Shown in pieces: positions 425 to 28,733 of a stretch of 64,000 nucleotides of DNA. The stretch is from a candidate division WWE3 bacterium (lineage in GTDB: Bacteria; Patescibacteriota; 4484-211; GCA-002791395). Every line of letters begins with the position of its first letter. Within the stretch, counting starts at the first letter, position 1. A program made the position numbers and the translations under genes. The DNA is taken from assembly GCA_013335095.1 (NCBI GenBank), contig JAAXWF010000001.1, positions 381,984 to 445,983 of the forward strand. The letters are read 5' to 3'. The notes under the pieces are model-generated. The model was not told where the DNA came from. It did no database searches and worked only from the letters and a program-made list of their open reading frames with translations.

Positions 425-534
425 ATTTTATCCCATAATATTGAATTTTTTAGTTTATATTGATACAATCCTGTTGTCTTTTGCGGCGAATTGATAACGG
501 AGCTGAGAGTTATCTCAGCATGTACAGGAGGCGT

Positions 535-915
535 ATGAGACACCGCAGTGTGAGCCCTCAGGATATCTCGGATCAATACGTCAAGCACCTGATTCTGGTG
601 CTTCGGATCTCTCCGGCAGAGATTGATGAGTGCGAGCTCATCGCCCAGTGGACCGCCACGCGCTGGGACCAGGTCCTTGAGTTCGTGCGGGGGCTTGGTA
701 CCCGCAAACTCGGCCTGCTGGTCGCCAGCGTCCAGGAGGATGTGAGCGTAGACGATCTTAGTCTGTACTCGGTCCACTGCGAGACGTGGCTGGCAAAGCA
801 CGCCTCGGGGCGAGAGTTGCTTGAGTCCATCGCCGCGACGATGCTGATCGCGCGTGTCTTTGGTCAGCTGCGAAGCCAGACCAAATGGGCGCGTCGGCCG
901 AGGGCTGCGGCGTAG
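535..915 (+). CDS. hypothetical protein (126 aa), GC-rich cassette
   Basis: SD AGGAGG 5 nt before the ATG at 535. GC-rich codon usage. Followed by a strong intrinsic terminator. No recognisable motif. Confidence 0.5.
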   Translation: MRHRSVSPQDISDQYVKHLILVLRISPAEIDECELIAQWTATRWDQVLEFVRGLGTRKLGLLVASVQEDVSVDDLSLYSVHCETWLAKHASGRELLESIAATMLIARVFGQLRSQTKWARRPRAAA

Positions 916-921
916 TTGAAT

Positions 922-968
922 GGCGGCGGGTGTGTTCCTTCGGGATACACATTCGCCGCATTTTTTTA
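922..968 (+). terminator. Rho-independent terminator (GGCGGCGGGTGTGT...ACACATTCGCCGC followed by T7)
   Basis: Long GC hairpin followed by TTTTTTT, read directly from the sequence. Confidence 0.7.
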
Positions 969-1095
969 TCTGTATACATTATTTTTTCAAATATATCTCG
1001 ATTAATTATTGAATATGGAAGTTGGTATGAAATTTGGGAGCGGATAATAATAGGGCAGGATTATTAGTCCTGCCCATGCGTTTTCCCTTTCTTGC

Positions 1096-1770
1096 TTAAG
1101 CCGGCTGGCCGGCGATCATCGCCTCGGCCCAGTACGTCTCGGTGTCATCAACCGACCTCTGGGTGAAAAGAACCCCGAGTCGTTCGATGACCTGGTCGAT
1201 GGTCAGCCCTGATAGTAGGATTGTGATCCCATTCTCAAAGTTGACCTGCGTGGTCTGCGGTATGATGAGCCCCAGCAGATCGGCAATCTGCGGGTTTCCA
1301 CACAGAATGTGGCATTGGTCGATCTCTGGGGGGAGGCCTACCACCCGATAGCTGGCCCGGTAGGGCTTCAAGATGATGACGCTGGGCCGCAGGATGGCGA
1401 GCTCGCGCGAGTACTCATCAATCCGGAAGTTTCCACCTGGCCTGGCAACTCGGATAATCTCGGCTGCCTTCATCTGGCGGTACGTGTTGTACTCCCTCCA
1501 GAAGAAGTTAGTCTCAGGCTTACTGTTTCGATAATCAGTGGCCTGGGCGAGACCGCCATGGTCGGAAACCATGTTGCTATATGGGTAGTACTCGTGGATC
1601 CCACGTTCCGGGCTCCATCGATACACCCCATGGTGGTGGCACTCCACCCACACCCGCCGATCCTCGCCTGGGAACACCCAGCCAAGGAAATCGACGATTT
1701 TGGCCTGATCGGCCGCATCCAGACGTAGTTCGCTCATAGAGCGTCCCTCCCTATAATTCTCCGAATTCAC
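1096..1770 (-). CDS. hypothetical protein (224 aa), GC-rich
   Basis: SD GGGAGGGAC 5 nt before the ATG at 1770. Coherent GC-rich ORF. Contains a His cluster (ECHHHG). No family recognised. Confidence 0.55.
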   Translation of the reverse strand: MNSENYREGRSMSELRLDAADQAKIVDFLGWVFPGEDRRVWVECHHHGVYRWSPERGIHEYYPYSNMVSDHGGLAQATDYRNSKPETNFFWREYNTYRQMKAAEIIRVARPGGNFRIDEYSRELAILRPSVIILKPYRASYRVVGLPPEIDQCHILCGNPQIADLLGLIIPQTTQVNFENGITILLSGLTIDQVIERLGVLFTQRSVDDTETYWAEAMIAGQPA

Positions 1771-1882
1771 TTTCTGCCGGTGCAGATGGATTAAGTATAA
1801 CGTAAAGTATGAAAAATGTCTAACACTATGGGGCTTTGTATCTATTAAGAAGGATGTGTCGATAGATATTCAGTAAATTTGG

Positions 1883-1918
1883 GAATAAAAAACCCGTATG
1901 CCAAACTGACATACGGGT
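1883..1918 (-). terminator. Rho-independent terminator for the minus-strand operon (ACCCGTATG...CATACGGGT followed by TTTTTTATT)
   Basis: Hairpin plus U-run on the minus strand, immediately 3' of the ORF that ends at 1929. Confidence 0.6.
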
Positions 1919-1928
1919 CCATGTTCGA

Positions 1929-2726
1929 TTACAGGTTGGATAAAAGATCTTCCAACCCATCCAGTTCCCCAGCGATTGCGGCGATTTCGCGTTCTCGCTG
2001 GTCGTCTTGAGCGGCCTGCTTTGCATCCCTCTGGATTTGTGCCGCCTTTTGCCTCTCGCGGAGCACTTCTTCCTCAGCGAGTTTTTCCATCATAGCCCGA
2101 TACCAAGCCAGGTATGCTGGCAGATCGGTTAACGTTGTCTGATCATAGATGCGCATATGTCCCATGTGCTCTCCATGATCACGCCACACCTCAAGACCGT
2201 TGCTGGTAATGCGGCTAGCGACTCCTTCGGGGATAACCACTTCGGCAAATAATGCCTCGTAGCGACTCCGCGATGCTTCTCGCTGTGCCGTCTCTACTGC
2301 ATACTGTGCATCATGCAGCGCCTGCACCTCTTGGCGTCTTTGAATCTCTTCTTGACGCCTGCGTTTATCCCTATCGATCCCTTGAGTAATGCCGATTATT
2401 GTCGGTTCGTACCCAAGAACCTGGCGAAGGAATTCATCCCCGTCATCTAGAAGTTGGCCATCAAACTGATGGGTACCGTAAGTGTAGGCGATCGGTCCAC
2501 CTTCACGGTAGCCACCTTTGGAACTAACCCCTTTGCCGTAATCGTAACCACCTCTTCCTTCAATACGAAGAAGGCAGCGCTCCATAAGAGCGATTGTTAC
2601 GACCCGATCCCGGTAGTCACCTGCATATCCTGATGTCCGGACCGAATCCGGAAATACCATCAGTGCCCAGTGATCCTTATATCGACCTTGACCGATGGTC
2701 TCGACCAAATACCAGAGACCGTGCAT
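1929..2726 (-). CDS. hypothetical coiled-coil protein, GC-rich. The start is uncertain. The ORF is open to 2915 and overlaps the upstream gene.
   Basis: Long GC-rich ORF with an Arg/Glu/Gln-rich C-terminal coiled-coil region and a Gly/Tyr-rich segment (GGYDYGKGVSSKGGYREGG). No good SD at 2915. An internal Met at 2726 lies just downstream of the stop of the upstream gene. Confidence 0.4.
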   Translation of the reverse strand: MHGLWYLVETIGQGRYKDHWALMVFPDSVRTSGYAGDYRDRVVTIALMERCLLRIEGRGGYDYGKGVSSKGGYREGGPIAYTYGTHQFDGQLLDDGDEFLRQVLGYEPTIIGITQGIDRDKRRRQEEIQRRQEVQALHDAQYAVETAQREASRSRYEALFAEVVIPEGVASRITSNGLEVWRDHGEHMGHMRIYDQTTLTDLPAYLAWYRAMMEKLAEEEVLRERQKAAQIQRDAKQAAQDDQREREIAAIAGELDGLEDLLSNL

Positions 2727-2812
2727 TCCCCGATGGCGGGATAGGCTGTTATGTCGGCCGTTTCTCAGGGTCCACGAGGTCGGACCTTGATCGGTAAACG
2801 CGCGCGTGGCCA

Positions 2813-4741
2813 CTATTGGCCTCCTTCGATCTTGGCGAGCAGTGCCGGCGGGAATATCGATAGAATCGACTTGCCAGCTTTTTCGCGCCAATCCTGATCG
2901 GCTGCCACTTCCCATCCATAGTCGCGGTAGGCGGTGAGTGCTGTCTCGATCTGCCGGTGGTCGGGGGTACCTGTGGTATAGATATCGCCCTTCCGGCTAC
3001 CACTGCCCTTGCGGCGTGACGTGGTGTAAGTCGTCCGGTCGAATTCGGTGAGAATCCAACCCTCAGCTCCTCCGACAAGTACGATGGGGTTACCGGTATC
3101 GGTATAGCGCCAACCCGATAAGATCAACCCATCGTCTTTGGCTCGACGAATAAGATCCCTGATTGCAGCGACCTTTTCCGCCGTTTCTTCTGCCGCAGTC
3201 TGAGGTGCTTCCCAGCGGTATACCCACCGGTAGTTTCCTCGGATCTTTACATACTCGACTGAAACCGTGCTGGATCCAGCGAAATGCTGGTTGCCCCGCG
3301 CAATGTCAGTGATCGTGTGCGGTCGAAGCTCATCGCCCTGGCGAATTAGAACCTGAGCAAAGCCCAGATTACTCGCCAGTTTAACCACCACATGGTGGGG
3401 GAGCTGAACGACAGCGTTAAATCTGTATGCATGGGGCTCTCCAGGCGTTTCGATGGCAATGATCTCTGCCTCGAGTTCACCCGGAAGTTGACGAAACCAT
3501 GCATCAAGCTCGTCCGATCGAAGCGGTCGAATATCCTCGACCGTGTCTGCCCGAATTCGAGCGATTTGCTCAGCATCAGGTTTCGGACCGTGTGGCCATT
3601 CAATCGATTCCCAAGCGTTTGCCGGAGCGTCTGATCTCATGACCGCATTTTCGAACGCATCGGTTGGTGCGCCCCAGTGTTGTGCGCCATCGAATAGCGG
3701 CAAAACATCGGGATGTATTACACCATGATTACTTCCAGCAGCCCAACCGTTCCATCCCGAACCTGCAACGCCGAGCCGGCGCAGTTCATAAAAGACTGCG
3801 TCTGGTACGGATCGGAGTCCAGCCATCTGGGCGGTTTGACCTGCTTCCTGATAAGCCGCGCGTGCTGCCTCCAGGTGAGACTGGGCTTCTGCCGGTACTT
3901 CTGGTACCAGGCTCGTCAGGTAGTGATTTGGCACTGGGCCAAATTTCTGCCAGACTATGGTGCCATTCTTAAGTTCCCCGACCTCGATTTCAAAGATTTG
4001 GCTCGGGAAACCGGGAATGCCCACTCTTATTAAGGCTAAGACCTTATTGGGGCGAAGTGCCCACTCAACAAACTGTCCCCACGCAGGGTTAACCCGAAGG
4101 GGATGGCAGTTAATTGAGCTGCGACTGCGCTCTGTGGTGATCCAACATACCGGTTCTGGTCCTGACAACCGATATGCTTCTTGCCCGAGCGTCACCAGTT
4201 GAGCATTGTTCCATGCTACGGTGACGCTTCGTGTTGCTCGTGCCCCAGGAACGATTTCTCCCTGCCAGCTGGCGGTAGCCACATAGCTGTGAACTACACC
4301 ATCGACGGAGAACGTCGTGCCTTCCAGGGTCACTGTAACCGTCAAGGTTTCACCATTGACGGCGATTGTCGGAGTGTCCTTGTCCCAATCTTGAAATGCA
4401 TCAAGCTGCGCTTGAACCAACGCCGCCATTTGATGGCGCTGGTTGGCCTGATCCTGTTGGATCTGCAATGCATTCTGCTGAGTAACTTCTCGCTCGTGGC
4501 GAGTGCTGATTCGCCGGATGATCGTCAAGAAGTGCACGGAACCGGACGCATTTTCCCCACCTTTGGTCGGAATTTTAACCAGCCAGATGTCTCCATTGGC
4601 TGGCTGTCGACCACTGCGTTGGGGAAAGGCAATGCGGCCGTTGATTCGTTGAGTGGCCATGACACCGCTATCGCGGGCAGGGCAAAACTCAACCTCAAAT
4701 TCTTGCTCTATGAGAGCTGCAATACCTTGAGTACGGGCCAT
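2813..4741 (-). CDS. hypothetical large protein (642 aa), GC-rich
   Basis: SD GGAGGGAC 3 nt before the ATG at 4741. Coherent ORF. No P-loop or other signature recognised. Confidence 0.55.
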   Translation of the reverse strand: MARTQGIAALIEQEFEVEFCPARDSGVMATQRINGRIAFPQRSGRQPANGDIWLVKIPTKGGENASGSVHFLTIIRRISTRHEREVTQQNALQIQQDQANQRHQMAALVQAQLDAFQDWDKDTPTIAVNGETLTVTVTLEGTTFSVDGVVHSYVATASWQGEIVPGARATRSVTVAWNNAQLVTLGQEAYRLSGPEPVCWITTERSRSSINCHPLRVNPAWGQFVEWALRPNKVLALIRVGIPGFPSQIFEIEVGELKNGTIVWQKFGPVPNHYLTSLVPEVPAEAQSHLEAARAAYQEAGQTAQMAGLRSVPDAVFYELRRLGVAGSGWNGWAAGSNHGVIHPDVLPLFDGAQHWGAPTDAFENAVMRSDAPANAWESIEWPHGPKPDAEQIARIRADTVEDIRPLRSDELDAWFRQLPGELEAEIIAIETPGEPHAYRFNAVVQLPHHVVVKLASNLGFAQVLIRQGDELRPHTITDIARGNQHFAGSSTVSVEYVKIRGNYRWVYRWEAPQTAAEETAEKVAAIRDLIRRAKDDGLILSGWRYTDTGNPIVLVGGAEGWILTEFDRTTYTTSRRKGSGSRKGDIYTTGTPDHRQIETALTAYRDYGWEVAADQDWREKAGKSILSIFPPALLAKIEGGQ

Positions 4742-4979: not shown

Positions 4980-6314
4980 TTGTCGTATATGCCAAAAGAA
5001 AAGGTCGTATATCAATGTAATGCGTGCGGATTTACCTCGTACAAATGGCAGGGTAAATGCTTTGAATGTGGGGCGTTTAATTCATTTTCTGAGAAAAAAA
5101 TAACCTCAACTAAGAGCTCTTCTGTCTCTCCTGTGGGGTATTCATCGTCTGATACGGTAAAACTGAGTCAAGTCGCTATGGATGAGAAGAAACGAATATC
5201 AAGTACTATTAATGAGTTGGACCTTATCATTAACGGTGGATTCGTGCCAAATCAAGTCGTTTTGATTGGTGGGGAGCCTGGGGTGGGGAAGTCGACCTTG
5301 CTTTTGCAATTAGCGGGTCAATTCCAAAGTCTGTATGTGTGTGGTGAAGAATCAGAAGTCCAGGTCAAATTACGAGCTCAACGGATGGGAATATCGGCTG
5401 ATTCGATTACCTTATATCGTGATCGTGAAGTAAATCAGCTTACTAACTTTATTCACGATAACTATCCGTCCAATAATAACAACCAACCGACGTTAGTCAT
5501 CGTCGACTCAATACAATCAATTTTTTCTTCACATATAGAATCAACCCCGGGGGGAATTTCTCAAGTTCAATATTGCACAAATAAACTTGTCGAAACTGCG
5601 AAGAGAACAAACGTAATCTTGGTTATTATTGGGCAGATTACAAAAGAAGGCGGTATTGCCGGACCCAAACAACTTGAACATATGGTCGATTCGGTGTTGT
5701 ATTTAGAAGGTGATCGTAAAACTGACTTAAGAATTCTGCGCGTTGAAAAAAATAGATTTGGACCAACTGATCAGGTCGGGATGTTTCAGATGTCGGAATA
5801 TGGCCTAGTGAGTGCCGAGGATCTGTTAGCAAAGTTGATTGATTCGGGTCATCAAGATATTCCTGGGTCTGTTATAACGGTTGCGATGGAAGGGCAACGT
5901 CCGATACTTCTTGAAGTCCAGGCGCTCAATACAACCGCGCAATACGGAAATGCTCGCCGAGTTGTAAATGGAATGTCTTCAAATCGGGTTCAAATGCTCC
6001 TTGCCGTACTTCAGCGTCGCGTCGGATTAAAAACAAGTAATTACGATATCTATGTTAACCTCAGTGGTGGTTTTAAAGTTAATGATCCTGCGCTCGATCT
6101 TCCGGTCGCTTTAGCCGTGTATTCGGTGATTAAAAATAAGCCGTTGCCACAAGATTTAGTTGCGTATGGAGAAGTTGGGCTTTTAGGCGAAATTAAATCT
6201 ACCTGGCAATCGACTCGCCGTCGCAATGAAGCCGAAAAACGGGGATATAAAACGATTGTTGATCAGTCATTTGCCAAATCTATCGCCTCTTGTATTAAAA
6301 AACTTTTCGTTTAA
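4980..6314 (+). CDS. radA: DNA repair protein RadA/Sms
   Basis: N-terminal C4 zinc finger (CNACG...CFECG). Walker A GGEPGVGKSTLLLQ. KNRFG motif (RVEKNRFGPTD). Lon-like C-terminal domain. Confidence 0.9.
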   Translation: MSYMPKEKVVYQCNACGFTSYKWQGKCFECGAFNSFSEKKITSTKSSSVSPVGYSSSDTVKLSQVAMDEKKRISSTINELDLIINGGFVPNQVVLIGGEPGVGKSTLLLQLAGQFQSLYVCGEESEVQVKLRAQRMGISADSITLYRDREVNQLTNFIHDNYPSNNNNQPTLVIVDSIQSIFSSHIESTPGGISQVQYCTNKLVETAKRTNVILVIIGQITKEGGIAGPKQLEHMVDSVLYLEGDRKTDLRILRVEKNRFGPTDQVGMFQMSEYGLVSAEDLLAKLIDSGHQDIPGSVITVAMEGQRPILLEVQALNTTAQYGNARRVVNGMSSNRVQMLLAVLQRRVGLKTSNYDIYVNLSGGFKVNDPALDLPVALAVYSVIKNKPLPQDLVAYGEVGLLGEIKSTWQSTRRRNEAEKRGYKTIVDQSFAKSIASCIKKLFV

Positions 6315-6381
6315 TCCTTTTGTTCGTTATTTGTTAGGAAAATATCAATTAGTTTCATACTAAATAGTTACTATAGGTGTG

Positions 6382-6397
6382 TACTGTAATCACAGTA
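6382..6397. promoter_or_regulatory. 16-bp perfect palindrome TACTGTAATCACAGTA in the promoter region of the radical SAM gene; candidate operator
   Basis: Perfect inverted repeat (TACTGT aatc ACAGTA) about 65 bp upstream of the start codon. Confidence 0.4.
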
Positions 6398-6462
6398 TGC
6401 ACCTTTATAAGGAGCGGTCGTATGACCGCGTTATCTGGCTTCTGCCAGGCAAGGAGTGGACC

Positions 6463-7539
6463 ATGTTCACCAATGTTAACTCCAATATCTCGTATGACCT
6501 TTTTGGCCAGGGGGAAATTAATGTCGATGCTTGGGCAGCTATTTGTGCCCACCATAACATTGACCCACACCAGCCGGTGTTGATGCTTCCCCATGGGAAG
6601 ACCACCACGGCCGGGGGGCAAAAGATCAGTCGAATCCTGTGGGAGGTCCGAAAACTGTACTTCTATCAGGTGGTCGATACGATCGGCCAACTGTGGAGTG
6701 CCTCTCGGATCTCGACAATCGACGAATTACCGAGTGGTCTGCCCATGACCCGAATTATCTCGTTTGGCGAGTGCAACGTAAGTTGCCCGTACTGCAAGCG
6801 AGATTGCCAGTTCCGTGATGACGACGGTGAGGTGATCGTATCGATCCTGGTACCGTTAAGTCAAGTTCTGGCCGGGTGTGTGGGGGCACACTCGCGGGGC
6901 GAGATCGTCCGGTTCAGCGGCGGTGATCCGGTGATGTTTCGGCGTGAAACCGAAGCTATTGCCGAGTACCTAGCTGCTGTTCATGGGACTAAGGTTTCGA
7001 TTGCCCACAACGGCAGCGGGACCAGCTGGGTCAAACGGCTATTGCCGAACCTTAGCTCGGCGGCAATTGATCTTAAGGCTGTGCCGGAAAAAATCGGCAT
7101 GGTTATGGGGATCAAGTCCGAGCAGGGGCAAGCAATGTACACACGCTCACTAGCCACCCAAGCGGTGGTCAGCCAGGGCGGGGCATTGCTTGACGTTCGG
7201 ACGCCGGTTTTCGGTACCACTTCGACCGATGAAATGCGCCGATTGGCGTATGACATTTGTCGGGTGAATGATCTTCGGTACACCTTCTGGACATGGCGTC
7301 TGTACAAGGCGGTTCAGGGGTGTGACTGGGAGGTTGCCGAAAAGGATCGGGTGATCGAGCAGATGCAACGTGTTTCGGCCGAATTTCCTGACCTGTGGTT
7401 GGGGATTCGGGCCAAGTGGCAGCGCGGCGGCATGGAGTACCTCCGTGCTGGGCGCGTGATCGACCACTCGGCCGACGCCGAGGCCGGATATGATGCCGAG
7501 ATAGGCTCGGGCAACCAAGCCATCTTGGCGCCAGGATAA
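6463..7539 (+). CDS. radical SAM enzyme of unknown subfamily (about 358 aa), GC-rich
   Basis: CxxxCxxC cluster (FGECNVSCPYCKRD). SAM-binding-like segment (RFSGGDPVMF). SD AAGGAG 6 nt before the ATG at 6463. The upstream ORF frame from 6379 has no SD. Confidence 0.7.
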   Translation: MFTNVNSNISYDLFGQGEINVDAWAAICAHHNIDPHQPVLMLPHGKTTTAGGQKISRILWEVRKLYFYQVVDTIGQLWSASRISTIDELPSGLPMTRIISFGECNVSCPYCKRDCQFRDDDGEVIVSILVPLSQVLAGCVGAHSRGEIVRFSGGDPVMFRRETEAIAEYLAAVHGTKVSIAHNGSGTSWVKRLLPNLSSAAIDLKAVPEKIGMVMGIKSEQGQAMYTRSLATQAVVSQGGALLDVRTPVFGTTSTDEMRRLAYDICRVNDLRYTFWTWRLYKAVQGCDWEVAEKDRVIEQMQRVSAEFPDLWLGIRAKWQRGGMEYLRAGRVIDHSADAEAGYDAEIGSGNQAILAPG

Positions 7540-7560
7540 AAGGAGGTGCGAATAAATTCG

Positions 7561-7593
7561 GGCGGGTGTGTATTTCACATCCGCCTTTTTTTA
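7561..7593 (+). terminator. Rho-independent terminator (GGCGGGTGTG...ACATCCGCC followed by T7)
   Basis: Hairpin followed by TTTTTTT directly after the radical SAM stop codon. Confidence 0.7.
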
Positions 7594-7832
7594 TCTTCAT
7601 TCTAATAGTAGTCGGGGTGTTGTGGTTAATTCTGCAACATTCCGGCCTTTTTCTGATTTTCTATCTACAATTTATCAATTTTTTCCTGACAAAAAGCAAA
7701 AATCTCATTTTTTCCACTCAATTTTCATTATTCTGGTCTCATCGCACCTTAAGCGAATGGAGCCGGATCAAAATCCGGCACAATCTTGCCCCGCTGGGGC
7801 TAATCCCTCGTGCTGAGGGGAAGGAGAGGACC

Positions 7833-8276
7833 ATGTTCTCGATACTTACCGGCGTGACGGTGGACGGGATCGCGACAGAGCTTATCGTGGGGCTGATTGC
7901 GGCCCTGATTGGCTCGATTCTGGGTAATCTCATCTACCGGCCTATCCGCGAGCGATGGGAACTCCACCGCTTCGGCGGTTGGGTGTTCATCGTTCACATG
8001 CCGGACGGCCGCGAGGGCCTGCGGCGGCGCATGAGCGTCGCCCAGGTGCGGGAGTTCATTCCGCATGGTCAAAACGACCGCGATGTGGACGAGGCCGGGT
8101 TCGCCTCCTACATCACCGGGGTCGTTTCGAAGGCTGGTCCGCGGAGCGTCTGCTGGATCAATGGTGATCCGCTTACTCTTCCTGGGCTAATGACCATCAA
8201 GCGGGTTGAGCGTCAGGTCTTCATTGACCTGGCCAAGAATCCGCGAGATGAGTCGTCTGACCGTGGAGGCGGCTAG
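7833..8276 (+). CDS. small membrane-anchored protein (147 aa, one N-terminal TM helix), GC-rich
   Basis: SD AAGGAG 6 nt before the ATG at 7833. Hydrophobic N-terminus (ILTGVTVDGIATELIVGLIAALIGSILGNLIY). The 7566 start in the ORF track lacks an SD. Confidence 0.5.
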   Translation: MFSILTGVTVDGIATELIVGLIAALIGSILGNLIYRPIRERWELHRFGGWVFIVHMPDGREGLRRRMSVAQVREFIPHGQNDRDVDEAGFASYITGVVSKAGPRSVCWINGDPLTLPGLMTIKRVERQVFIDLAKNPRDESSDRGGG

Positions 8277-8286
8277 GTGCGAATTA

Positions 8287-8328
8287 GGGGTCGGAAAGCA
8301 CAGCGCTTTTCGACCCTTTCTTTTATTT
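8287..8328 (+). terminator. Rho-independent terminator (GGGGTCG...CGACCC followed by TTTCTTTTATTT)
   Basis: Hairpin plus T-run. Confidence 0.65.
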
Positions 8329-8586
8329 CTGACAATTACATGACTAAATCCACTTTTTTCCCTAACAGAAAGTAAAAAACCCACTTACCAGATTCTTTTT
8401 TCGGTATTGTGATCTTAGTAGCACATTAAAAGACCAGGTTTCCTCTTACCCAATACGAGCGGGGTGTTAGGCGGTTGATGCATAGACCGCCCGATACCCC
8501 GATCGTCCTAGCCAATCGAGCTAGGCGGGTACTCCGCATCTGCGGAGGTGGAGGCGCACATTGCGCCACTATAAGGAGGTAACCCC

Positions 8587-8943
8587 ATGGCTACCACGAT
8601 TGTTCGGATCACCCGCCACGCCGCCGAAGCCGCCCAGCTCGATGAGCTGAAGCGGATCTTTGGTGTGGTTGAGGTCGTCCAGGTCAGCGAAACGCTGCCG
8701 GGCGACCCCAAGGCTGCGGTGGCCCGGTTCGACGAGATCGCGGCGGATGCCGCGGTGGTCGAGGCCGTTCTGCCCACCAACCTGTTGGAGGCCGCGCTGA
8801 AGTTCAGCGCGTTCGCCAACCGGGGGGGCACCCTGATTCGTGCGGTCACCAACCGCACCATCGGGGTCGACGGCCAGGCCTCCTTCACCTTCGCTCACTA
8901 CGAGCGGGTGGTGAAGGTCGAGATCGTGACTGAGAAGCTGTAA
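8587..8943 (+). CDS. hypothetical small protein (118 aa), very GC-rich
   Basis: SD AAGGAGG 6 nt before the ATG. Ala/Val/Glu-rich globular-looking sequence. No motif recognised. Confidence 0.5.
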   Translation: MATTIVRITRHAAEAAQLDELKRIFGVVEVVQVSETLPGDPKAAVARFDEIAADAAVVEAVLPTNLLEAALKFSAFANRGGTLIRAVTNRTIGVDGQASFTFAHYERVVKVEIVTEKL

Positions 8944-8967
8944 CGCTTACTCGGTCACGATCTACTC

Positions 8968-9006
8968 GGGCAGGGGAGTAAAATCTCTCCTGCCCCTATT
9001 TTTCTT
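8968..9006 (+). terminator. Rho-independent terminator (GGGCAGGGGAG...CTCTCCTGCCCC followed by T-run)
   Basis: Hairpin followed by TATTTTTCTT. Confidence 0.65.
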
Positions 9007-9049
9007 GCATGAGGGAGCAATCTCTCCGCTTTTTTGATACTGTTAATAC

Positions 9050-10279
9050 ATGCACTCCCATCTAAAAATTGCAATCTGCGGAGCCCCCAATAGTGGAAAA
9101 TCAGTCTTTTCGCATGTGCTAGCATCTCTACTACCCCGTAATCGATTTACTTTAATAGAGGGAGCACCTGATGGCATCGGCGTTAACGGTGGGTTGTATC
9201 AACTGCCAACTTCAGTTGCTAAGCGATTGCGTCGGAAAGGAAGCTTTGTTCCTAAGTACGTCGACTGGATTGTTCGTTCAGTTCGTCAATCGACTGCAAG
9301 TATTACACTTGTTGATATTGGGGGGAAAATCAGTCCGGAAAACATGCAGATTATGCAGTCATGTAGCCATGTTATTGTGCTGGGGCGTACCCGTCGTCAA
9401 ATATTATCTTGGATCCATTTTGCTCAAACCCATCATCTCACTGTATTAGCTATTTTGCATACCTTGCTTCAAGGAGAAGATACGCTCTATTCAGAATCAA
9501 TTCCCATAAGAGGCGTTGTTACTGGATTAAAAAGAGATCAACCGCCGTTTAATTCGATGGTGATACAAAGGATTGCGAATTTACTACTGACTCTTTCAAC
9601 TACCGACGATCCTCGACTCGATGGATCAATGCTTGCTGATATTAATTTATCTAAACTCGCTGAAAAGCTTGATTTACCGATAAATCCTGGTGGTATCGAT
9701 AGGCGATGGACCCCCGAATCACTGAGCGAATTATTACAAAATATTGATAACCAGTGTCATAACAACAAACAAATTCTTTTGTGGGGCAATGCATCATCGG
9801 GGCTTCCGTACCATACTGTTGCGGCTAACCTTTTAAATCAACGAATTCGCTACTATGATCCCAAGATTAATCCTGGTTATGTGCCATTAGCCGATGTCGA
9901 TATGGGCATTAACGGGGATGATTTATTAGAGTGGGAGCGGAAGGACCGGTCCGGATATACTCATATTCATTTTAGACTTAAAGAGGGCGTCTTCGATGTT
10001 TTTGATTTACCGATGTTGAAGCCGCCATTTATTGATACCAAAAAGGGTTTAATTCTCACTGGTCGGGGAATGTGGTGGTTAACAGGTACAATATTGCGGT
10101 GTTACGCACGGTATAAATTGCCGTGGATTGCCGTGCTAAATACGGCCGAAATTTCGGAATGGTACAAACAACATCCTCAAAAAAATGATTCAAAATTATA
10201 TGGAGTTGCCGTCGTAATTATGACAAATTCACCGACTATACAATTAGGTACAACGATGGTTTTTCCGCTGGCTAGTTAA
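9050..10279 (+). CDS. P-loop NTPase of unknown function (409 aa)
   Basis: Walker A/G1-like motif IAICGAPNSGKSVF and DxxG motif (LVDIGG). AT-rich native-like composition. C-terminal half unrecognised. Confidence 0.55.
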   Translation: MHSHLKIAICGAPNSGKSVFSHVLASLLPRNRFTLIEGAPDGIGVNGGLYQLPTSVAKRLRRKGSFVPKYVDWIVRSVRQSTASITLVDIGGKISPENMQIMQSCSHVIVLGRTRRQILSWIHFAQTHHLTVLAILHTLLQGEDTLYSESIPIRGVVTGLKRDQPPFNSMVIQRIANLLLTLSTTDDPRLDGSMLADINLSKLAEKLDLPINPGGIDRRWTPESLSELLQNIDNQCHNNKQILLWGNASSGLPYHTVAANLLNQRIRYYDPKINPGYVPLADVDMGINGDDLLEWERKDRSGYTHIHFRLKEGVFDVFDLPMLKPPFIDTKKGLILTGRGMWWLTGTILRCYARYKLPWIAVLNTAEISEWYKQHPQKNDSKLYGVAVVIMTNSPTIQLGTTMVFPLAS

Positions 10280-11501
10280 GTTTAAGTTGAAAACCGCGTC
10301 CGCGAACGGTGATTAAATGTTTGGGATTATATTTATCAGTTTCAACTTTATCGCGTAAGCGGCTCACCAGTTGGTCAATTGCTTCATCGCTAACTCCTTG
10401 TTCCTTTCTGACCTCCCAAACTGCTTCGGCGATTTCATCACGGTCAATAACCCGGCCATGATGTTCGTACATATACCTAAAGAATTTATATTCATTTGGG
10501 GTAAAGATATCATCAATCCGAACTCCTTTTTTGTAAACTTCTCCGGTCACATCATCTAAATAGAGTGCGGGATGATTTTCAGTAATAAAATCAGCTAATC
10601 GTGAACTAAATACTTTTTTCTTTTCATTTATTACTCCAAGCTGCGATAGCTTTTTTAATTCGAGCTGATCTCTTTCGGTTAAATGTAATCCTACAACTAA
10701 TCGTTGGATCGCTTTTTGCTGAGACTCGGTTAATACATTTAATATTCTCTGACACTGGAAAATAACGGTCTCGTGATGAGCTGCTGATGTTAGTTTTTCT
10801 TTAAAAGAACCATGTTCAATTGCGGTTAATTGATAGATGTATGCATCAATCATTCGATTGTGCCCACCGGTTATTTCATAGACTGTATCGATTTCATCTG
10901 AATTTAAATGTAATCCACGCGCATTGGATTTATATTCAATGTAATAATTAGCTTCTTTTTCATCAAATGGTTCAAGGTAGAACGTGAATGGCGCAACGAG
11001 TGTATAAAATTGATCGATGTCTTGAATGTCTCGAATTGATTCTATTGGCTGATTGAGCGAGATTACCATGGTTACGTGTCGATTGCTCTGCACAACCATT
11101 GATCGCAATGTATCAAAAAATAAATTGGGAAGGTGAGCAAGTGCTTTTTCAAATCGATCAAAGATAATCACGTACCGTTTGCGTTGTTTTGCTGCCCATG
11201 TCACGAACTGTTCAATCGAGCTAATGTTTGTATTTTCCAGTGTTAAGTTAATTTCATTGATAATACATTCATGAATACCGTCGATTGTTAACTCCCGTAG
11301 ATTGTTTAAATCAACAAAAATAGGTTTGATCGAGGAATTTGATGATAATTTCTGTTTTATTTTTTGCAATAAGAAAGTTTTTCCGACCCCTGGAATACTG
11401 ACGATTAGACAACTGTCGCTTTGTTTAATTGAATTGCTCACATCGGTCGATATTTTTTGTCTAAACCATGAGGGGGTCTGTTTAAATATCGTTTCAGTCA
11501 T
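10272..11501 (-). CDS. AAA/STAND-like ATPase with C-terminal OmpR/PhoB-type winged-helix DNA-binding domain
   Basis: Walker A IVSIPGVGKTFLLQ. C-terminus ...EYKFFRYMYEHHGRVIDRDEIAEAVW...ITVRGRGFQL matches the trans_reg_C signature. Confidence 0.65.
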   Translation of the reverse strand: MTETIFKQTPSWFRQKISTDVSNSIKQSDSCLIVSIPGVGKTFLLQKIKQKLSSNSSIKPIFVDLNNLRELTIDGIHECIINEINLTLENTNISSIEQFVTWAAKQRKRYVIIFDRFEKALAHLPNLFFDTLRSMVVQSNRHVTMVISLNQPIESIRDIQDIDQFYTLVAPFTFYLEPFDEKEANYYIEYKSNARGLHLNSDEIDTVYEITGGHNRMIDAYIYQLTAIEHGSFKEKLTSAAHHETVIFQCQRILNVLTESQQKAIQRLVVGLHLTERDQLELKKLSQLGVINEKKKVFSSRLADFITENHPALYLDDVTGEVYKKGVRIDDIFTPNEYKFFRYMYEHHGRVIDRDEIAEAVWEVRKEQGVSDEAIDQLVSRLRDKVETDKYNPKHLITVRGRGFQLKLN

Positions 11502-11585: not shown

Positions 11586-11918
11586 TTATTTAATCCGAAA
11601 CGGCATTGCTCGGTTTAAGTTGGTTGTACCTTTTGTATCTACTCGCGATACGCCATTTGATCGTTGGTTAATGTCGGTCGCCGGAGATGAGGGAAGCGTC
11701 ACATTTGCATTGCGTTGTACTGCATATCTTCGTGCAGACTCTAGGTCCGATTCTCTTAATGAAGGATTCTCTCTCAATATATCATCAGTAGATTTACCTC
11801 GGGAGAGGTCCTCTAAGACAGAGGACACTGTAATGCCAGTTCCCGAAAAAACAGCTTGGCCACCAGCTAATTGTGGGTTAAATTGAATATGGCCATAATC
11901 AGTATTACGCCGTGACAT
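11586..11918 (-). CDS. DUF433-family protein (putative antitoxin-like DNA-binding protein) with C-terminal extension
   Basis: Core AGGQAVFSGTGITVSSVLEDLSRGKSTDDILRENPSLRESDLESARRYA resembles the DUF433 signature. Confidence 0.5.
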   Translation of the reverse strand: MSRRNTDYGHIQFNPQLAGGQAVFSGTGITVSSVLEDLSRGKSTDDILRENPSLRESDLESARRYAVQRNANVTLPSSPATDINQRSNGVSRVDTKGTTNLNRAMPFRIK

Positions 11919-12175
11919 ACCTATATAGTATCAGACTTCTACAAAAACGTGTAGAAACTCGTTGCCGCTTGATCCTAAAGCCGAATTGACAGCTTTAGAA
12001 CAATGTTGTAATACAATACGTGGCACCATATACATCATATCGTTATGGGTAGTAAGATGAGTCCGTTTACTCATTTTTCTACCCTTAATCGAAGGGTCCG
12101 GATCTTTGATCTGGTGGCACACAATATGGAGCCTGAGCAACTCGTTTGTCTAGGCATGTAAAGGAGATCGCGGCG

Positions 12176-13285
12176 ATGGCGGATCTGACACAACGGAGTG
12201 GGTCAGAGGATCGGATGTATGGATTTATTCGAGAGTGGCGACGTGAAGCTCGTCGTCTGGTCGTTTATTCTGGTGAGCCGATTAATCAGTCCTATCCCCC
12301 TCAACCACAAGATGATGCGGTTCGTTTTCAAGCCAGCGTGGACGACTTAGCCCCTAGTGTTATTGGCTTGATCTTGTGCCGACAGGCGGCAGGACAACGG
12401 GTATCGTTTATCGTTGAGCGAGATGCTCTCAGCCATCGGAGCATTTCCGATGTCCATGCGAGCATCCGATTACCTCGGAATCTGCAGGCATATACACCTG
12501 AGCCGTCACGAGCGTCGAATCAGCCAATGATCATCACCCAAGTCCGTGATGATCAAAACCGAACTGATGATGGAGGGTACCGGATTATGCATTCCGGTAG
12601 TCGTACCGGAGGTATGCAGGTCCTATACCACGCTTCTTCAGCTGGGGTGTTGGCAGCATTCGACACCTTTGTGCCTGAAGGTAATTTCGGCAGGATACCT
12701 CCGGTCCTCGTCGTATCTGATACGAATCGGACAGGGTATCTTCTGGTGCCGATTCAGTCACGGTATCATATGCAACTTCCACGGACCGATTTCTATCCTG
12801 GATTTTGGCGAGAAGCGGCTCAATCGCTTGGGCTAGACAAGATTACTCTGGTGATCTGTCGAACCGTACCGGCGTATGTACTGAGCGTTCGGAGTCTCAC
12901 CGAACAATTTTCCTTTGCCGAAACCCGCATCTTAGTCGATGGCCGCGGTCGGGTGTGGGGGCAGCTGCAAAAAGATGGTAAGGCCTGGTGGGACGAGGCT
13001 CCCGTATTGGGTCTTGATCCAGCCTCATTTCCAACAGAGCCTCGACAAATCTTAACCGAGGCTCAAGGCACATCAGTCGAAGCGAATCGCCGTCTTTTGG
13101 AGATTCAATTCGTGGTGTCGCTTTTAGCCGCGGATGGAATCTTAGGACGAGTCTATACGCCGATTCGAACCTACGGCAAACCAGTGTTGCCGGTATCACC
13201 TTCGGCAGCGCTCGTCCATCGGGCAATCGAGAACATGCCCTTTGGGTTTCGTCCTCAGCTGCGCACTATAAGTGTTGCTAGCTAG
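12176..13285 (+). CDS. hypothetical protein (369 aa), GC-rich
   Basis: SD AAGGAG 9 nt before the ATG at 12176. The ORF track begins at an in-frame TTG at 12146. Coherent GC-rich ORF. No motif recognised. Confidence 0.5.
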   Translation: MADLTQRSGSEDRMYGFIREWRREARRLVVYSGEPINQSYPPQPQDDAVRFQASVDDLAPSVIGLILCRQAAGQRVSFIVERDALSHRSISDVHASIRLPRNLQAYTPEPSRASNQPMIITQVRDDQNRTDDGGYRIMHSGSRTGGMQVLYHASSAGVLAAFDTFVPEGNFGRIPPVLVVSDTNRTGYLLVPIQSRYHMQLPRTDFYPGFWREAAQSLGLDKITLVICRTVPAYVLSVRSLTEQFSFAETRILVDGRGRVWGQLQKDGKAWWDEAPVLGLDPASFPTEPRQILTEAQGTSVEANRRLLEIQFVVSLLAADGILGRVYTPIRTYGKPVLPVSPSAALVHRAIENMPFGFRPQLRTISVAS

Positions 13286-13297
13286 TTACTAAATACG

Positions 13298-13330
13298 TCT
13301 GGGAGCTTCCAAAAGCTCCCAGTTTTTCTT
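13298..13330 (+). terminator. Rho-independent terminator (CTGGGAGCTT...AAGCTCCCAG followed by TTTTTCTT)
   Basis: Perfect 10-bp stem plus T-run. Confidence 0.7.
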
Positions 13331-13360
13331 GACATCCTATAATATTTTTCGTACTATAAT
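13329..13360 (+). promoter_or_regulatory. sigma70-like promoter (TTGACA, 18 nt, TACTAT/TATAAT) followed by a structured leader of about 180 nt
   Basis: Consensus -35 TTGACA and -10-like hexamers. The leader contains nested stems (GGGGTACAAA/TTTGTGCCCC enclosing CCCTAAA/TTTAGGG; GATAACC/GGTTATC). Confidence 0.5.
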
Positions 13361-13544
13361 CTGTTACATATTGGATGGGGTACAAATTTCCCTAAAATGG
13401 GTATTTAGGGACGTTTGTGCCCCATTTGTTGATAACCGTCGGGGTTATCGCAATGTGGTAATGCAAGGCCTCTGTGAGGTTTTGCATTGTGTGGTGGGCT
13501 TGTGCCCATAGGCGTCTGTTGGTCTCCATATTAAGGAGGAAGCC

Positions 13545-13949
13545 ATGACGGCACCTGCAGGAGCGACCACTCATCGGCCGCTAGCGGATCGCTCGCTCGG
13601 TACCCCGGGCCAACTGCTCGACATCGATGGGTACACCATTGATGAGGTCGATGGCGGCGGTCGTCATTATCTCACGAGGTGGTTGCTATCGATCGATAGC
13701 CATGGTGTCGTTCACGAGGTCGAGGAGGTCGGGATCGTCGATCCGCGTGATCGGTCGGTATCAAAATCCATCTTCCCGAGGGAGATGGTGCCGGCCCTGA
13801 TGGCTGCTGAAGGCGATCTGCTCTCGTTGACCCTTGGGCAGATCAACGCCATGATTGGCGGCAGCGTCCTGACGGACTGGCGCGAGATCCGTGGTGCTGG
13901 GGTTAAAATCCGCCAGTATCGCGAATCACAGGCGGCTACTGCCGTCTAA
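13545..13949 (+). CDS. hypothetical protein (134 aa), GC-rich
   Basis: SD AAGGAGG 5 nt before the ATG. Coherent ORF. No motif recognised. Confidence 0.5.
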   Translation: MTAPAGATTHRPLADRSLGTPGQLLDIDGYTIDEVDGGGRHYLTRWLLSIDSHGVVHEVEEVGIVDPRDRSVSKSIFPREMVPALMAAEGDLLSLTLGQINAMIGGSVLTDWREIRGAGVKIRQYRESQAATAV

Positions 13950-23127: not shown

Positions 23128-23277
23128 CGACACCTCCCTTTGTTTCTTACTTGTCGCGCCCCCGAGCGGCGCATGTGCGAATATTAAGTGAATTTTACGG
23201 CGCGATATTCTAGGGCGCAATATGTAATTTATTATGGGATTTATAAGAATTCAGTTTAAGTTGTGAATGAATTTGGT

Positions 23278-28716: not shown

Positions 28717-28733
28717 AAACAATCTTGTCATCA

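What the first reader, a model, noticed from the sequence alone, without database searches (positions are those of the whole stretch)
6315..8330. Foreign radical-SAM enzyme cassette with palindromic operator and downstream membrane protein
A GC-rich radical SAM enzyme (CNVSCPYC cluster about 100 aa from the N-terminus; FSGGDP SAM motif) is inserted directly after radA. It has its own SD and terminator. A perfect 16-bp palindrome (TACTGTAATCACAGTA) sits in its promoter region. It is followed by a small GC-rich single-TM protein that uses a nearly identical initiation module (AAGGAGnGGACCATGTTC). Radical SAM enzymes outside core metabolism in mobile, self-regulated cassettes include prokaryotic viperin-like antiviral nucleotide modifiers and RiPP maturases. 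I cannot decide which from sequence.
Basis: partly seen in the sequence, partly recalled or inferred. Interest (0 to 1): 0.65.

Follow-up and report, generated by a model that had tools for sequence, protein, structure and literature searches.

The report
Foreign radical-SAM gene linked to cyclic-oligoadenylate modules
A horizontally acquired radical-SAM enzyme gene in a tiny-celled (CPR, WWE3) bacterium belongs to an uncharacterised family found only in such bacteria and in phages. In about half of the loci examined, this family sits beside sensors or degraders of the cyclic-oligoadenylate alarm molecules used in antiviral immunity, a link I could not find described.

Summary
The gene is real: a 358-aa radical-SAM protein (ATG 6463 to 7539) with CNVSCPYC and FSGGDP motifs, its own Shine-Dalgarno site and a terminator. 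It lies after radA and has foreign codon usage (GC3 0.65 against 0.27-0.37 in native genes). The "perfect 16-bp palindrome" is wrong. It is TACTGT-AATC-ACAGTA, the core of a 13-bp RNA hairpin 60 nt after radA.

The downstream 147-aa single-TM protein is an ORFan, paired with the enzyme only in a sister strain.

The enzyme fails the membership tests for pVip, glycyl-radical activases, QueE and RiPP maturases. It belongs to a small family in Patescibacteria and phages, including cultured Fusobacterium phages. Its fold is closest to PFL-activase.

Across 58 non-redundant loci with at least 3 kb of flank, 31 carry a partner within 3 kb:
- a TM-anchored SAVED4 sensor in 24 loci (18 directly adjacent);
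- a DUF1874/AcrIII-1/Csx16 ring-nuclease homologue in 7;
- an AAA-Csx3 in 4, including this window (9050-10279).

No cyclase, Cas10 or glycyl-radical enzyme recurs nearby. Best reading: an accessory radical enzyme acting in an adenylate-signal conflict module; its chemistry is unknown. Interest is moderately high.

The parts
4980..6314 (+). radA/sms, the native upstream flank (not part of the element)
   Evidence: TIGR00416 at 459.9 bits against a cut-off of 403. GC3 0.37, typical of native genes.
6375..6404 (+). 13-bp RNA hairpin with an AAUC loop. Possibly a weak radA terminator or a 5'-leader structure.
   Evidence: Fold -18 kcal/mol, z = -3.8. Only 6-bp DNA arms are self-complementary. Unique in the window. 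Not conserved upstream of homologues.
6451..6456 (+). Shine-Dalgarno AAGGAG of the radical-SAM gene
   Evidence: Sequence. It is part of the 21-nt module repeated at 7818-7838.
6463..7539 (+). Radical-SAM enzyme, 358 aa (HGA91_02070), from an uncharacterised Patescibacteria/phage family
   Evidence: 100% match to the WWE3 protein P0001. PF04055 at 27.3 bits, below its 29.5 cut-off. NrdG2 at 47 bits against 131 and viperin at 29.8 against 180. AF2 pLDDT 89. Foldseek top hit is PFL-AE 3c8f, E 3.5e-8. GC3 0.65.
6772..6795 (+). CNVSCPYC, the CX3CX2C [4Fe-4S] motif (C104, C108, C111)
   Evidence: Invariant in 42 aligned homologues.
6913..6930 (+). FSGGDP, the SAM-binding 'GGE-like' motif (S152-P156 invariant)
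   Evidence: Aligns with the GGEP motif of the viperin-like enzyme 7n7h.
7560..7593 (+). Intrinsic terminator of the radical-SAM gene
   Evidence: 11-bp stem plus T7. Fold -21.8 kcal/mol, z = -5.3.
7833..8276 (+). 147-aa single-TM ORFan protein, also foreign by composition. Its functional link to the enzyme is unproven.
   Evidence: One hydrophobic segment and GC3 0.74. Only 2 database relatives. Conserved with the enzyme's 3' end in sister-strain contig L138, at 87% aa against 81% nt identity. No profile similarity to the SAVED-like, B116 or fam2 families.
8286..8318 (+). Terminator of the 147-aa gene
   Evidence: -24.3 kcal/mol.
8587..8943 (+). 118-aa foreign alpha/beta protein (HGA91_02080). 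An independent cassette, not part of the enzyme's conserved neighbourhood.
   Evidence: GC3 0.86. Family of 18 found in other islands without the enzyme. AF2 pLDDT 94 with no PDB fold match. Replaced by an unrelated 130-aa gene in L138.
9050..10279 (+). AAA-Csx3 (Crn3-type ring-nuclease domain at about residues 294-366), the recurrent partner of this enzyme's subclade
   Evidence: PADLOC C3a67 'AAA-Csx3' 1.1e-42. Pfam Cas_csx3 at 33.3 bits against a cut-off of 21. Matches A. fulgidus Csx3 6yud/3wzi/6vjg. Homologues lie beside the enzyme in L001, L029 and L073. Native composition, GC3 0.36.

Best explanation
The gene encodes a functional, horizontally acquired accessory radical-SAM enzyme. Its family is uncharacterised and confined to Patescibacteria (CPR) and phages.

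Shown:
- It has the [4Fe-4S] triad (C104/C108/C111), a GGDP SAM motif and a confidently predicted partial TIM-barrel core most like the small PFL-AE/NrdG/QueE-type enzymes.
- It also has a conserved N-terminal beta-rich cap, about 95 aa in the long form.
- It carries many invariant Arg/Lys residues: K112, R113, R150, K205, R246, R279, R316.
- Family members sit next to proteins that bind or cleave cyclic oligoadenylates. These are TM-anchored half-SAVED (SAVED4) sensors, DUF1874/AcrIII-1/Csx16 ring-nuclease homologues and AAA-Csx3. No Cas10, CD-NTase or glycyl-radical enzyme recurs nearby.

Inferred:
- The enzyme reductively cleaves SAM to a 5'-deoxyadenosyl radical.
- It acts on a nucleotide-type (adenylate-based) small molecule in an immune-signal pathway. 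It either makes or alters the ligand read by the SAVED sensor (a defence module in CPR), or inactivates a host signal (counter-defence in phages, beside AcrIII-1 homologues).

In this window it is a monocistronic insert with its own SD and terminator, between radA and two other unrelated foreign genes. An AAA-Csx3 gene lies 1.5 kb downstream. The upstream hairpin is a transcript structure, not a demonstrated operator.
For: - Identity and fold.
- Foreign origin: GC3 0.65 against 0.27-0.37. The enzyme gene is GC-richer than its surroundings in most loci, by up to +0.14.
- Restricted, isolated family: 185 homologues, named ones all Patescibacteria. Only 95 clusters among 1.84 billion representatives.
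- Phage copies: 14 IMG/VR loci. Cultured Fusobacterium phages FNU1, FNU2, FNU3, JD-Fnp4 and phiFN37.
- Partner census: of 58 non-redundant loci with at least 3 kb of flank, SAVED-like lies within 3 kb in 24 (18 within 300 bp), DUF1874 in 7 and AAA-Csx3 in 4. Any one of the three occurs in 31. Partners occur in 15 of 29 clades at 60% identity.
- Proximity: 27 of 28 SAVED-like hits lie within 1.1 kb although flanks reach 5-8 kb.
- Tight operons: in L053, B116 ends at 2599 and the rSAM starts at 2602. L047 reads rSAM / fam2 / TM-SAVED / B116.
- Partner identities, SAVED: Pfam SAVED in 16 of 16 members. PDB profile hits to 9r8s and CalpL 7qda. PADLOC names SAVED4--SAVED and SAVED_TM.
- Partner identities, ring nucleases: B116-like proteins hit PF08960 at 4e-31, PADLOC Csx16, and AFV3-109, the DUF1874 protein 6scf and STIV B116 in the PDB. 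In phiFN37 the adjacent gene is annotated 'YddF family'. In FNU1, ORF79 is DUF1874 and ORF82 is the rSAM (PMC6591296).
- No recurrent cyclase or glycyl-radical-enzyme neighbour among 130 larger neighbours or the large phage ORFs.
Against: - No biochemical evidence exists, and the substrate is inferred only from neighbours.
- In this window the SAVED-like, DUF1874 and WDGH partners are absent.
- Two unrelated foreign genes separate the AAA-Csx3 from the enzyme, and the AAA-Csx3 has native composition. The two were therefore not acquired together.
- About half of the loci show no partner. Some members sit among housekeeping genes (L012).
- Defence and anti-defence genes cluster in islands, so some co-occurrence could be co-localisation without shared function.
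- The nearest folds are protein-radical activases, not nucleotide-modifying enzymes.
- Radical chemistry on cyclic oligoadenylates has no precedent.
Confidence: 0.5

Rival explanations
1. It is a glycyl-radical-enzyme-activase-like enzyme (PFL-AE/NrdG type). It would install a radical on a protein substrate encoded elsewhere, or on a small neighbour such as the WDGH/fam2 protein.
For: - Best structural matches are PFL-AE 3c8f/3cb8 (E 3.5e-8, TM 0.61-0.63 normalised by target) and a viral PFL-AE.
- The best NCBIfam hit is NrdG2.
- JGI names several homologues 'pyruvate formate lyase activating enzyme'.
- Long forms carry a conserved C-terminal GSGN tail.
Against: - Scores are far below cut-offs: NrdG2 47 bits against 131, and PFLA 16.5 against 232.
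- No NrdD or PFL-type partner appears among the large neighbours of about 55 loci, the phage loci or the window's large ORFs.
- The family has a conserved C-terminal region and an N-terminal cap that the activases lack.
Confidence: 0.15
2. The association with cOA-related genes is island co-localisation only. The enzyme has an unrelated accessory function, for example modifying another small molecule, RNA or DNA.
For: - Half of the loci lack any partner.
- In the window the neighbours are compositionally heterogeneous and separately terminated.
- Other recurrent neighbours, TrmB regulators and GNAT acetyltransferases, have nothing to do with cOA.
Against: - SAVED-like genes are directly adjacent, often overlapping or within 100 bp, and co-oriented in 18 loci across many clades.
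- Three unrelated cOA-binding folds recur.
- The pairing is kept in both phage and CPR genomes.
Confidence: 0.17
3. It is a prokaryotic viperin-like enzyme that converts an NTP into a 3'-deoxy-3',4'-didehydro chain terminator.
For: - Weak hits to pVip models (PADLOC 4.9e-8, NF038283 3.1e-7).
- The closest solved sequence is the viperin-like enzyme 7n7h (E 2.4e-5).
- Many invariant basic residues could bind a triphosphate.
Against: - 29.8 bits against a cut-off of 180. The match covers only the generic radical-SAM core, residues 103-231.
- The conserved C-terminal half is unrelated to viperin's.
- No nucleotide-kinase family appears among the recurrent neighbour families listed.
Confidence: 0.08
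4. It is a housekeeping or metabolic enzyme of the QueE/NrdG COG0602 type, used in 7-deazapurine or ribonucleotide metabolism.
For: - Weak QueE-like hits: TIGR03963 at 0.0029, and phrog_2076 'QueE-like' at 2e-7 for a phage short form.
- L012 lies among translation and replication genes.
Against: - All scores are far below cut-offs.
- No recurrent QueC, QueD, FolE or TGT neighbours appear.
- Distribution is patchy: 27 loci found among representatives of 185,579 species.
- Composition is foreign.
Confidence: 0.07
5. It is a RiPP maturase acting on a small neighbouring precursor peptide.
For: An N-terminal extension precedes the cluster, and small ORFs abound nearby.
Against: - No SPASM, twitch or PqqD/RRE hit.
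- Only eight Cys residues, with no auxiliary-cluster motif.
- Neighbour clustering, which covered ORFs of at least 60-70 aa, found no partner resembling a precursor peptide.
- The N-terminal cap is beta-rich and packs on the core with high pLDDT.
Confidence: 0.03

Closest known systems
Glycyl-radical-enzyme activases and their small relatives (PFL-AE, NrdG, QueE; COG0602-type radical-SAM enzymes)
   Same: Compact partial TIM-barrel core, CX3CX2C close to the first strand, and a GG(D/E)P SAM motif. They are the top fold matches and give the top HMM hit, NrdG2.
   Different: Scores lie far below family cut-offs. This family has an extra conserved N-terminal cap and a distinct C-terminal region (FWTWRLYK, RAKW, and a GSGN tail in long forms). 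No glycyl-radical enzyme or queuosine genes lie nearby.
Prokaryotic viperins (pVip)
   Same: A radical-SAM enzyme in a conflict-type setting that is phage-associated. Weak core similarity.
   Different: Fails the NF038283 cut-off (29.8 against 180). The neighbours differ: SAVED and ring nucleases instead of kinases. The C-terminal half is unrelated.
Type III CRISPR cA4 signalling accessories: SAVED4/CalpL-type sensors, Crn3/Csx3, Csx16 and viral AcrIII-1 (DUF1874)
   Same: The enzyme's recurrent neighbours belong to exactly these families.
   Different: Neither Cas10 nor any CRISPR effector family appears among the recurrent neighbour families. A radical-SAM enzyme is not a described component of these modules; the literature searches found none.
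Minimal CBASS (CD-NTase plus a TM-SAVED effector)
   Same: A two-gene core of one enzyme plus one TM-anchored SAVED-domain protein, sometimes with a signal-degrading enzyme.
   Different: A radical-SAM protein occupies the enzyme slot instead of a nucleotidyltransferase. The SAVED unit is a single CARF-like half of about 110 aa.

Membership tests
Radical SAM superfamily | CX3CX2C [4Fe-4S] motif | tested here: met
   C104-X3-C108-X2-C111, invariant in 42 homologues.
Radical SAM superfamily | Pfam PF04055 at or above its gathering score | tested here: inconclusive
   27.3 bits against a 29.5 cut-off for the window protein. Most homologues carry a precomputed PF04055 hit.
Radical SAM superfamily | Partial TIM-barrel fold with a SAM-binding GGE-type motif | tested here: met
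   AF2 pLDDT 89 with alternating beta/alpha from residue 95. 60 PDB matches at E <= 0.001; the 50 listed are all radical-SAM enzymes. SGGDP is invariant.
Prokaryotic viperin (pVip, NF038283) | Curated HMM score at or above 180 bits over the full length | tested here: not met
   29.8 bits, covering residues 103-231 only. PADLOC pVip gives 30.8 bits.
Prokaryotic viperin (pVip, NF038283) | Production of ddhNTP from NTP | not testable with these tools
   Needs an anaerobic enzyme assay.
Glycyl-radical-enzyme activase (PFL-AE TIGR02493 / NrdG2 TIGR02495) | Curated HMM score above cut-off | tested here: not met
   NrdG2 47 bits against 131.15, and PFLA 16.5 against 231.75.
Glycyl-radical-enzyme activase (PFL-AE TIGR02493 / NrdG2 TIGR02495) | A cognate glycyl-radical enzyme (NrdD or PflB-type) encoded nearby | tested here: not met
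   None appears among large phage neighbours, the window's large ORFs, the recurrent families of 130 neighbours or the precomputed Pfam of CPR loci.
Glycyl-radical-enzyme activase (PFL-AE TIGR02493 / NrdG2 TIGR02495) | Fold similarity to PFL-AE | tested here: met
   3c8f at E 3.5e-8, TM 0.61 normalised by target and 0.43 by query.
RiPP radical-SAM maturase (SPASM/twitch plus RRE) | C-terminal SPASM/twitch auxiliary-cluster domain | tested here: not met
   No Pfam hit. Cys residues lie at 28, 104, 108, 111, 115, 139, 266 and 287, with no CX2CX5CX3C-type motif.
RiPP radical-SAM maturase (SPASM/twitch plus RRE) | Adjacent precursor peptide and/or RRE (PqqD-like) domain | tested here: not met
   No PqqD hit. 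Neighbour clustering of ORFs of at least 60-70 aa found no precursor-like partner; shorter ORFs were not screened.
QueE (7-carboxy-7-deazaguanine synthase) | Curated HMM above cut-off and queC/queD/folE context | tested here: not met
   TIGR03963 gives 17.3 bits against 260. No such neighbours appear among the recurrent families.
Type III CRISPR / cOA-signalling accessory module | Adjacent cOA-binding or cOA-degrading protein (CARF/SAVED, Csx3, DUF1874) | tested here: met
   In the window, AAA-Csx3 lies 1.5 kb downstream. Across the family, 31 of 58 loci have such a partner.
Type III CRISPR / cOA-signalling accessory module | Cas10 or another cOA synthase in the locus or genome | tested here: inconclusive
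   None is seen within 5 kb in the loci examined or in the window ORFs scanned. Whole genomes were not available.

The most novel reading that the evidence does not exclude
The radical-SAM enzyme is the catalytic core of a Cas10- and CD-NTase-independent signalling (or counter-signalling) module. In one version it makes or remodels the nucleotide ligand read by the TM-anchored SAVED4 sensor, with DUF1874/Csx3 ring nucleases as off-switches. In the other it destroys adenylate-based immune messengers (cOA, SAM-AMP) by radical chemistry on behalf of phages and CPR episymbionts. Either version would be the first radical-SAM step in cyclic-oligonucleotide immunity.
Probability: 0.22. Interest if true: 0.85.

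Novelty: new variant of a known kind. Interest (0 to 1): 0.64.

Why it matters
Cyclic-oligonucleotide immunity (type III CRISPR, CBASS) is understood as cyclase, sensor/effector and ring nuclease. This family puts a radical-SAM enzyme next to the sensor and ring-nuclease parts, repeatedly and with no cyclase in sight. It occurs in two kinds of host-dependent entity: CPR bacteria and phages.

If the link is functional, it reveals either a new way of making or editing an immune messenger, or a new anti-immune chemistry. Either is directly testable, because cultured Fusobacterium phages (FNU1, phiFN37) carry the enzyme beside an AcrIII-1 homologue.

For this window alone, the gene is one of many GC-rich foreign inserts in a low-GC WWE3 genome. 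That mosaic says something about gene flow into reduced CPR genomes.

Tried and rejected
- Palindromic operator: the sequence is not a perfect palindrome, has no second copy, is not conserved upstream of homologues, and has no adjacent regulator. It recalls an E. coli SOS box (CTGT...ACAG, from memory) but the spacing is 4, not 8, so I did not pursue it.
- Riboswitch or known leader: Rfam gave nothing above gathering in 6200-9100.
- The 147-aa TM protein as a divergent TM-SAVED analogue: hhalign probabilities were below 2% against the SAVED-like, B116, fam2, fam8 and GNAT profiles. TM-bearing small neighbours are not a feature of loci that lack SAVED.
- The 118-aa protein as a ring nuclease or CARF: no profile similarity. 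The confident AF2 model has no PDB match (best E 1.8e-3, TM 0.40). Its relatives lie in islands without the enzyme.
- The N-terminal cap as a fused WDGH, B116 or SAVED domain: hhalign was negative.
- NrdD/PFL partners: none found.
- The shared SD-ATG module as evidence of one cassette: the 147-aa gene's module is partly conserved in sister strain L138, but there its ATG is out of frame with the called gene. Upstream regions of the enzyme's homologues do not align with the window's and show no such module. It is therefore local and of unclear meaning.
- Literature: searches pairing 'radical SAM' with AcrIII-1, ring nuclease + Csx3, SAVED domain, cyclic oligoadenylate, CARF, type III CRISPR and anti-defense found nothing describing this association. 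The DUF1874 pairing returned only the FNU1 genome paper, which lists both ORFs without comment.
Full report
**What is at the coordinates**

The window is a low-GC (about 0.40) genome with short GC-rich islands. The database holds the enzyme at 100% identity as HGA91_02070 of a candidate division WWE3 (Patescibacteria/CPR) MAG, on a 536-kb contig.

ORF 6379-7539 most likely starts at ATG 6463. AAGGAG lies at 6451-6456, and conservation among homologues begins at about residue 9. This gives a 358-aa protein.

- CNVSCPYC is residues 104-111.
- FSGGDP is residues 151-156.
- The gene follows radA (4980-6314; TIGR00416 at 460 bits).
- It ends in a strong terminator-like hairpin, 7560-7586 plus a T-run.

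Composition is clearly foreign. GC3 is 0.65, against 0.27-0.37 for radA, rho, obg, mgsA, S1 and others.

The 147-aa ORF (7833-8276; GC3 0.74) has one N-terminal hydrophobic segment and its own terminator. The two start modules share 19 of 21 bases, and the core pattern occurs nowhere else in the window.

**What is wrong in the observation**

The 'perfect 16-bp palindrome' is TACTGT-AATC-ACAGTA: 6-bp arms and a non-palindromic spacer. As RNA it extends to a 13-bp stem with two G-U pairs (6375-6404; -18 kcal/mol, z = -3.8). It lies 60 nt after the radA stop and is followed by only UUUAUAA.

- It has no second copy in the window.
- It is not present upstream of the closest homologues.
- No sigma-70-like promoter was detected on this strand.
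- No Rfam family matches.

I read it as a transcript hairpin, either a weak radA terminator or a leader structure. An operator role is unsupported.

**What the enzyme is not**

| Candidate | Result | Cut-off |
|---|---|---|
| NrdG2 (TIGR02495) | 47 bits | 131 |
| Viperin (NF038283) | 29.8 bits | 180 |
| MoaA, QueE, PFL-AE | weaker still | not reached |
| Pfam Radical_SAM (PF04055) | 27.3 bits | 29.5 |
| PADLOC pVip | 31 bits, generic core only | none given |

There is no SPASM or RRE hit and no auxiliary Cys motif.

An AF2 model built on 42 homologues is confident (pLDDT 89, pTM 0.89). Foldseek places it nearest to PFL-activating enzyme (3c8f, E 3.5e-8). RlmN, NifB and viperin-like enzymes follow. 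A viral PFL-AE is the top hit in BFVD.

So the core is of the small PFL-AE/NrdG/QueE type, but the protein is a member of none of those families. No glycyl-radical enzyme was found next to any member or among the window's large ORFs.

**The family**

- The 5.8-billion-protein search gave 185 homologues. The few that carry names are all from Patescibacteria.
- The exhaustive representative search found only 95 clusters at E <= 0.001 among 1.84 billion representatives.
- Long forms of about 340-400 aa conserve the whole length, including the N-terminal cap (E61 and R63 invariant). They also carry a GSGN motif in a flexible C-terminal tail.
- Short forms of about 250-285 aa lack the first 50-95 residues. 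They occur in CPR genomes and in phage contigs.
- Cultured carriers are Fusobacterium phages FNU1, FNU2, FNU3, JD-Fnp4 and phiFN37.
- Invariant basic residues are numerous: K112, R113, R150, K205, R246, R279, R316.

**The neighbourhood signal**

I collected 137 loci from assemblies, IMG/VR, GTDB genomes, JGI metagenomes and GenBank phages. I called ORFs, clustered neighbours with phmmer and HMMs, and collapsed loci at 85% enzyme identity. This left 70 clusters, 58 of them with at least 3 kb of flank.

| Recurrent neighbour (within 3 kb) | Loci | Identity evidence |
|---|---|---|
| 150-200-aa protein: N-terminal TM helix plus a single CARF-like SAVED half | 24 (18 within 300 bp) | Pfam SAVED in 16 of 16 members. 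Profile hits to 9r8s and CalpL 7qda. PADLOC 'SAVED4--SAVED' and 'SAVED_TM'. |
| DUF1874 / STIV_B116 protein | 7 | PF08960 at 4e-31. PADLOC Csx16. PDB AFV3-109, 6scf and STIV B116. This is the family of the viral ring nuclease AcrIII-1 (my knowledge). |
| AAA-Csx3 | 4: window, L001, L029, L073 |. |
| 'fam2' family containing the WDGH domain (PF25311) | 9 |. |
| TrmB regulators, GNAT acetyltransferases | CPR loci only |. |

- At least one of the three cOA-related partners is present in 31 of 58 loci, and in 15 of 29 clades at 60% identity.
- 27 of 28 SAVED-like hits lie within 1.1 kb of the enzyme although flanks extend 5-8 kb. This serves as an internal control against mere island co-occurrence.
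- Operons are tight. In L053, B116 ends at 2599, the rSAM starts at 2602, and WDGH starts at 3465. L047 reads rSAM / fam2 / TM-SAVED / B116. L004 reads fam2 / SAVED / rSAM / GNAT.
- In phiFN37 the enzyme and a 'YddF family' (DUF1874) gene sit in the early region after the CI-like repressor.
- In FNU1, ORF79 is DUF1874 and ORF82 is the enzyme (PMC6591296).
- Among 130 larger neighbours, no family recurs more than four times. No cyclase, Cas10 or glycyl-radical enzyme appears among the recurrent families.

**The window's own arrangement**

The SAVED-like, DUF1874 and WDGH partners are absent here. The partner present is AAA-Csx3 (9050-10279). It lies 1.5 kb downstream and has native composition (GC3 0.36).

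Between the enzyme and AAA-Csx3 lie two further foreign genes:

- The 147-aa TM protein is an ORFan, with only itself and an 86% relative in the database.
- The 118-aa protein belongs to a family of 18 that occurs in other islands without the enzyme. Its model is confident, but its alpha/beta fold matches nothing solved.

A sister-strain contig (L138, 81-88% identity) keeps the enzyme's 3' end and the 147-aa gene. Aa identity (87%) exceeds nt identity (81%), which is consistent with a real coding gene. The same contig replaces the 118-aa gene with an unrelated 130-aa gene, between a conserved leader and a conserved terminator.

The region is therefore a string of independently exchangeable foreign genes, not one operon. 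The 'cassette with downstream membrane protein' is not a conserved unit.

**How it most likely works**

Shown:
- the cluster and SAM motifs, and the fold;
- accessory and foreign status;
- carriage by phages and CPR bacteria;
- the statistical and positional association with cOA-binding and cOA-cleaving proteins.

Inferred:
- The enzyme cleaves SAM reductively and uses the 5'-deoxyadenosyl radical on a nucleotide-type substrate that belongs to an adenylate-signal pathway.
- Two directions are open. In CPR operons with a TM-SAVED sensor and a ring nuclease, the layout resembles a minimal signalling defence system with the radical enzyme in the 'synthase' slot.
- In phages, adjacency to AcrIII-1 homologues in early regions suggests counter-defence.

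I give the cOA-linked reading 0.5. The rivals are:

| Rival | Confidence |
|---|---|
| Island co-localisation with an unrelated function | 0.17 |
| Activase-like protein radical chemistry | 0.15 |
| pVip-like | 0.08 |
| QueE/NrdG-type metabolism | 0.07 |
| RiPP maturase | 0.03 |

**Novelty and verdict**

Full-text searches pairing 'radical SAM' with AcrIII-1, ring nuclease + Csx3, SAVED domain, cyclic oligoadenylate, CARF, type III CRISPR and anti-defense found no description of this association. The DUF1874 pairing returned only the FNU1 genome paper, which lists both ORFs without comment. The library is incomplete, so this is absence of evidence.

I classify the finding as a new variant of a known kind: a radical-SAM enzyme family in an unreported partnership with cOA-signalling parts. 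Its two candidate identities are not supported. Interest: 0.64.

Noticed in passing
window 460-4741, 6463-8943, 12146-13949, 18102-18839, 23277-24998: At least ten GC-rich genes (GC3 0.48-0.86, against 0.27-0.37 for native genes) are interspersed singly or in small groups between housekeeping genes (S1, radA, rho, obg, mgsA). None except the radical-SAM gene has a Pfam hit, and those also scanned against NCBIfam or PADLOC had none there. This is a striking mosaic of foreign ORFans in a reduced CPR genome.
   Followed up: partly
window 8587-8967 versus L138 1130-1555: A sister strain carries an unrelated 130-aa gene in place of the 118-aa gene. The 5' leader, including the first few codons (MAT...), and the 3' terminator (8968-9003) are conserved. 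This is a cassette-like gene swap with no recognisable integrase or repeats nearby.
   Followed up: partly
window 6398-6414 and 8562-8578: A shared motif, TGC(A/G)CC..TATAAGGAG, lies upstream of two foreign genes. At 6406-6424 it precedes an out-of-frame ATG (6422) that opens a 53-codon ORF overlapping the radical-SAM start. This could be a leader-peptide remnant or chance.
   Followed up: no
window 10272-11501 (- strand): A 409-aa protein with a P-loop/STAND-like ATPase and an OmpR-type winged-helix domain converges on AAA-Csx3 and overlaps it by 8 nt. A DUF433 gene (11586-11918) lies beside it. It may be a regulator or sensor of the local island.
   Followed up: no
rSAM residues about 340-358 (window 7480-7539) and alignment A1: Long-form family members end in a low-confidence flexible tail carrying a conserved E..GSGN motif that short (phage) forms lack. 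It could be a partner-docking or auto-regulatory tail.
   Followed up: no
L026 9056-10153: A TnpB/IS605 OrfB gene is inserted between the radical-SAM gene and its TM-SAVED partner in one phage contig. The related phage L016 has the two genes directly adjacent.
   Followed up: no
L018 8976-9353, L053 3465-3824, L004/L038/L046/L047 fam2: A WDGH-domain protein (PF25311, function unknown), or a longer relative of it, is a further recurrent operon partner of the enzyme. It has no PADLOC hit.
   Followed up: partly
L006, L033, L037, L039, L041, L048 (and others): In CPR loci a divergently oriented TrmB-family regulator, and often a 900-990-aa protein with no annotation, lie 1-3 kb from the enzyme. 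This suggests a larger conserved island or hotspot.
   Followed up: partly
window 28640-28716 and 28668-31103: The mechanical TTG start of the LeuRS ORF overlaps tRNA-Ala(GGC), so the real start must be further downstream.
   Followed up: no
window 53202-56000: A 932-aa protein with weak VirD4/TraG/TrwB coupling-protein domains, which hints at conjugation or DNA-uptake machinery in this genome.
   Followed up: no
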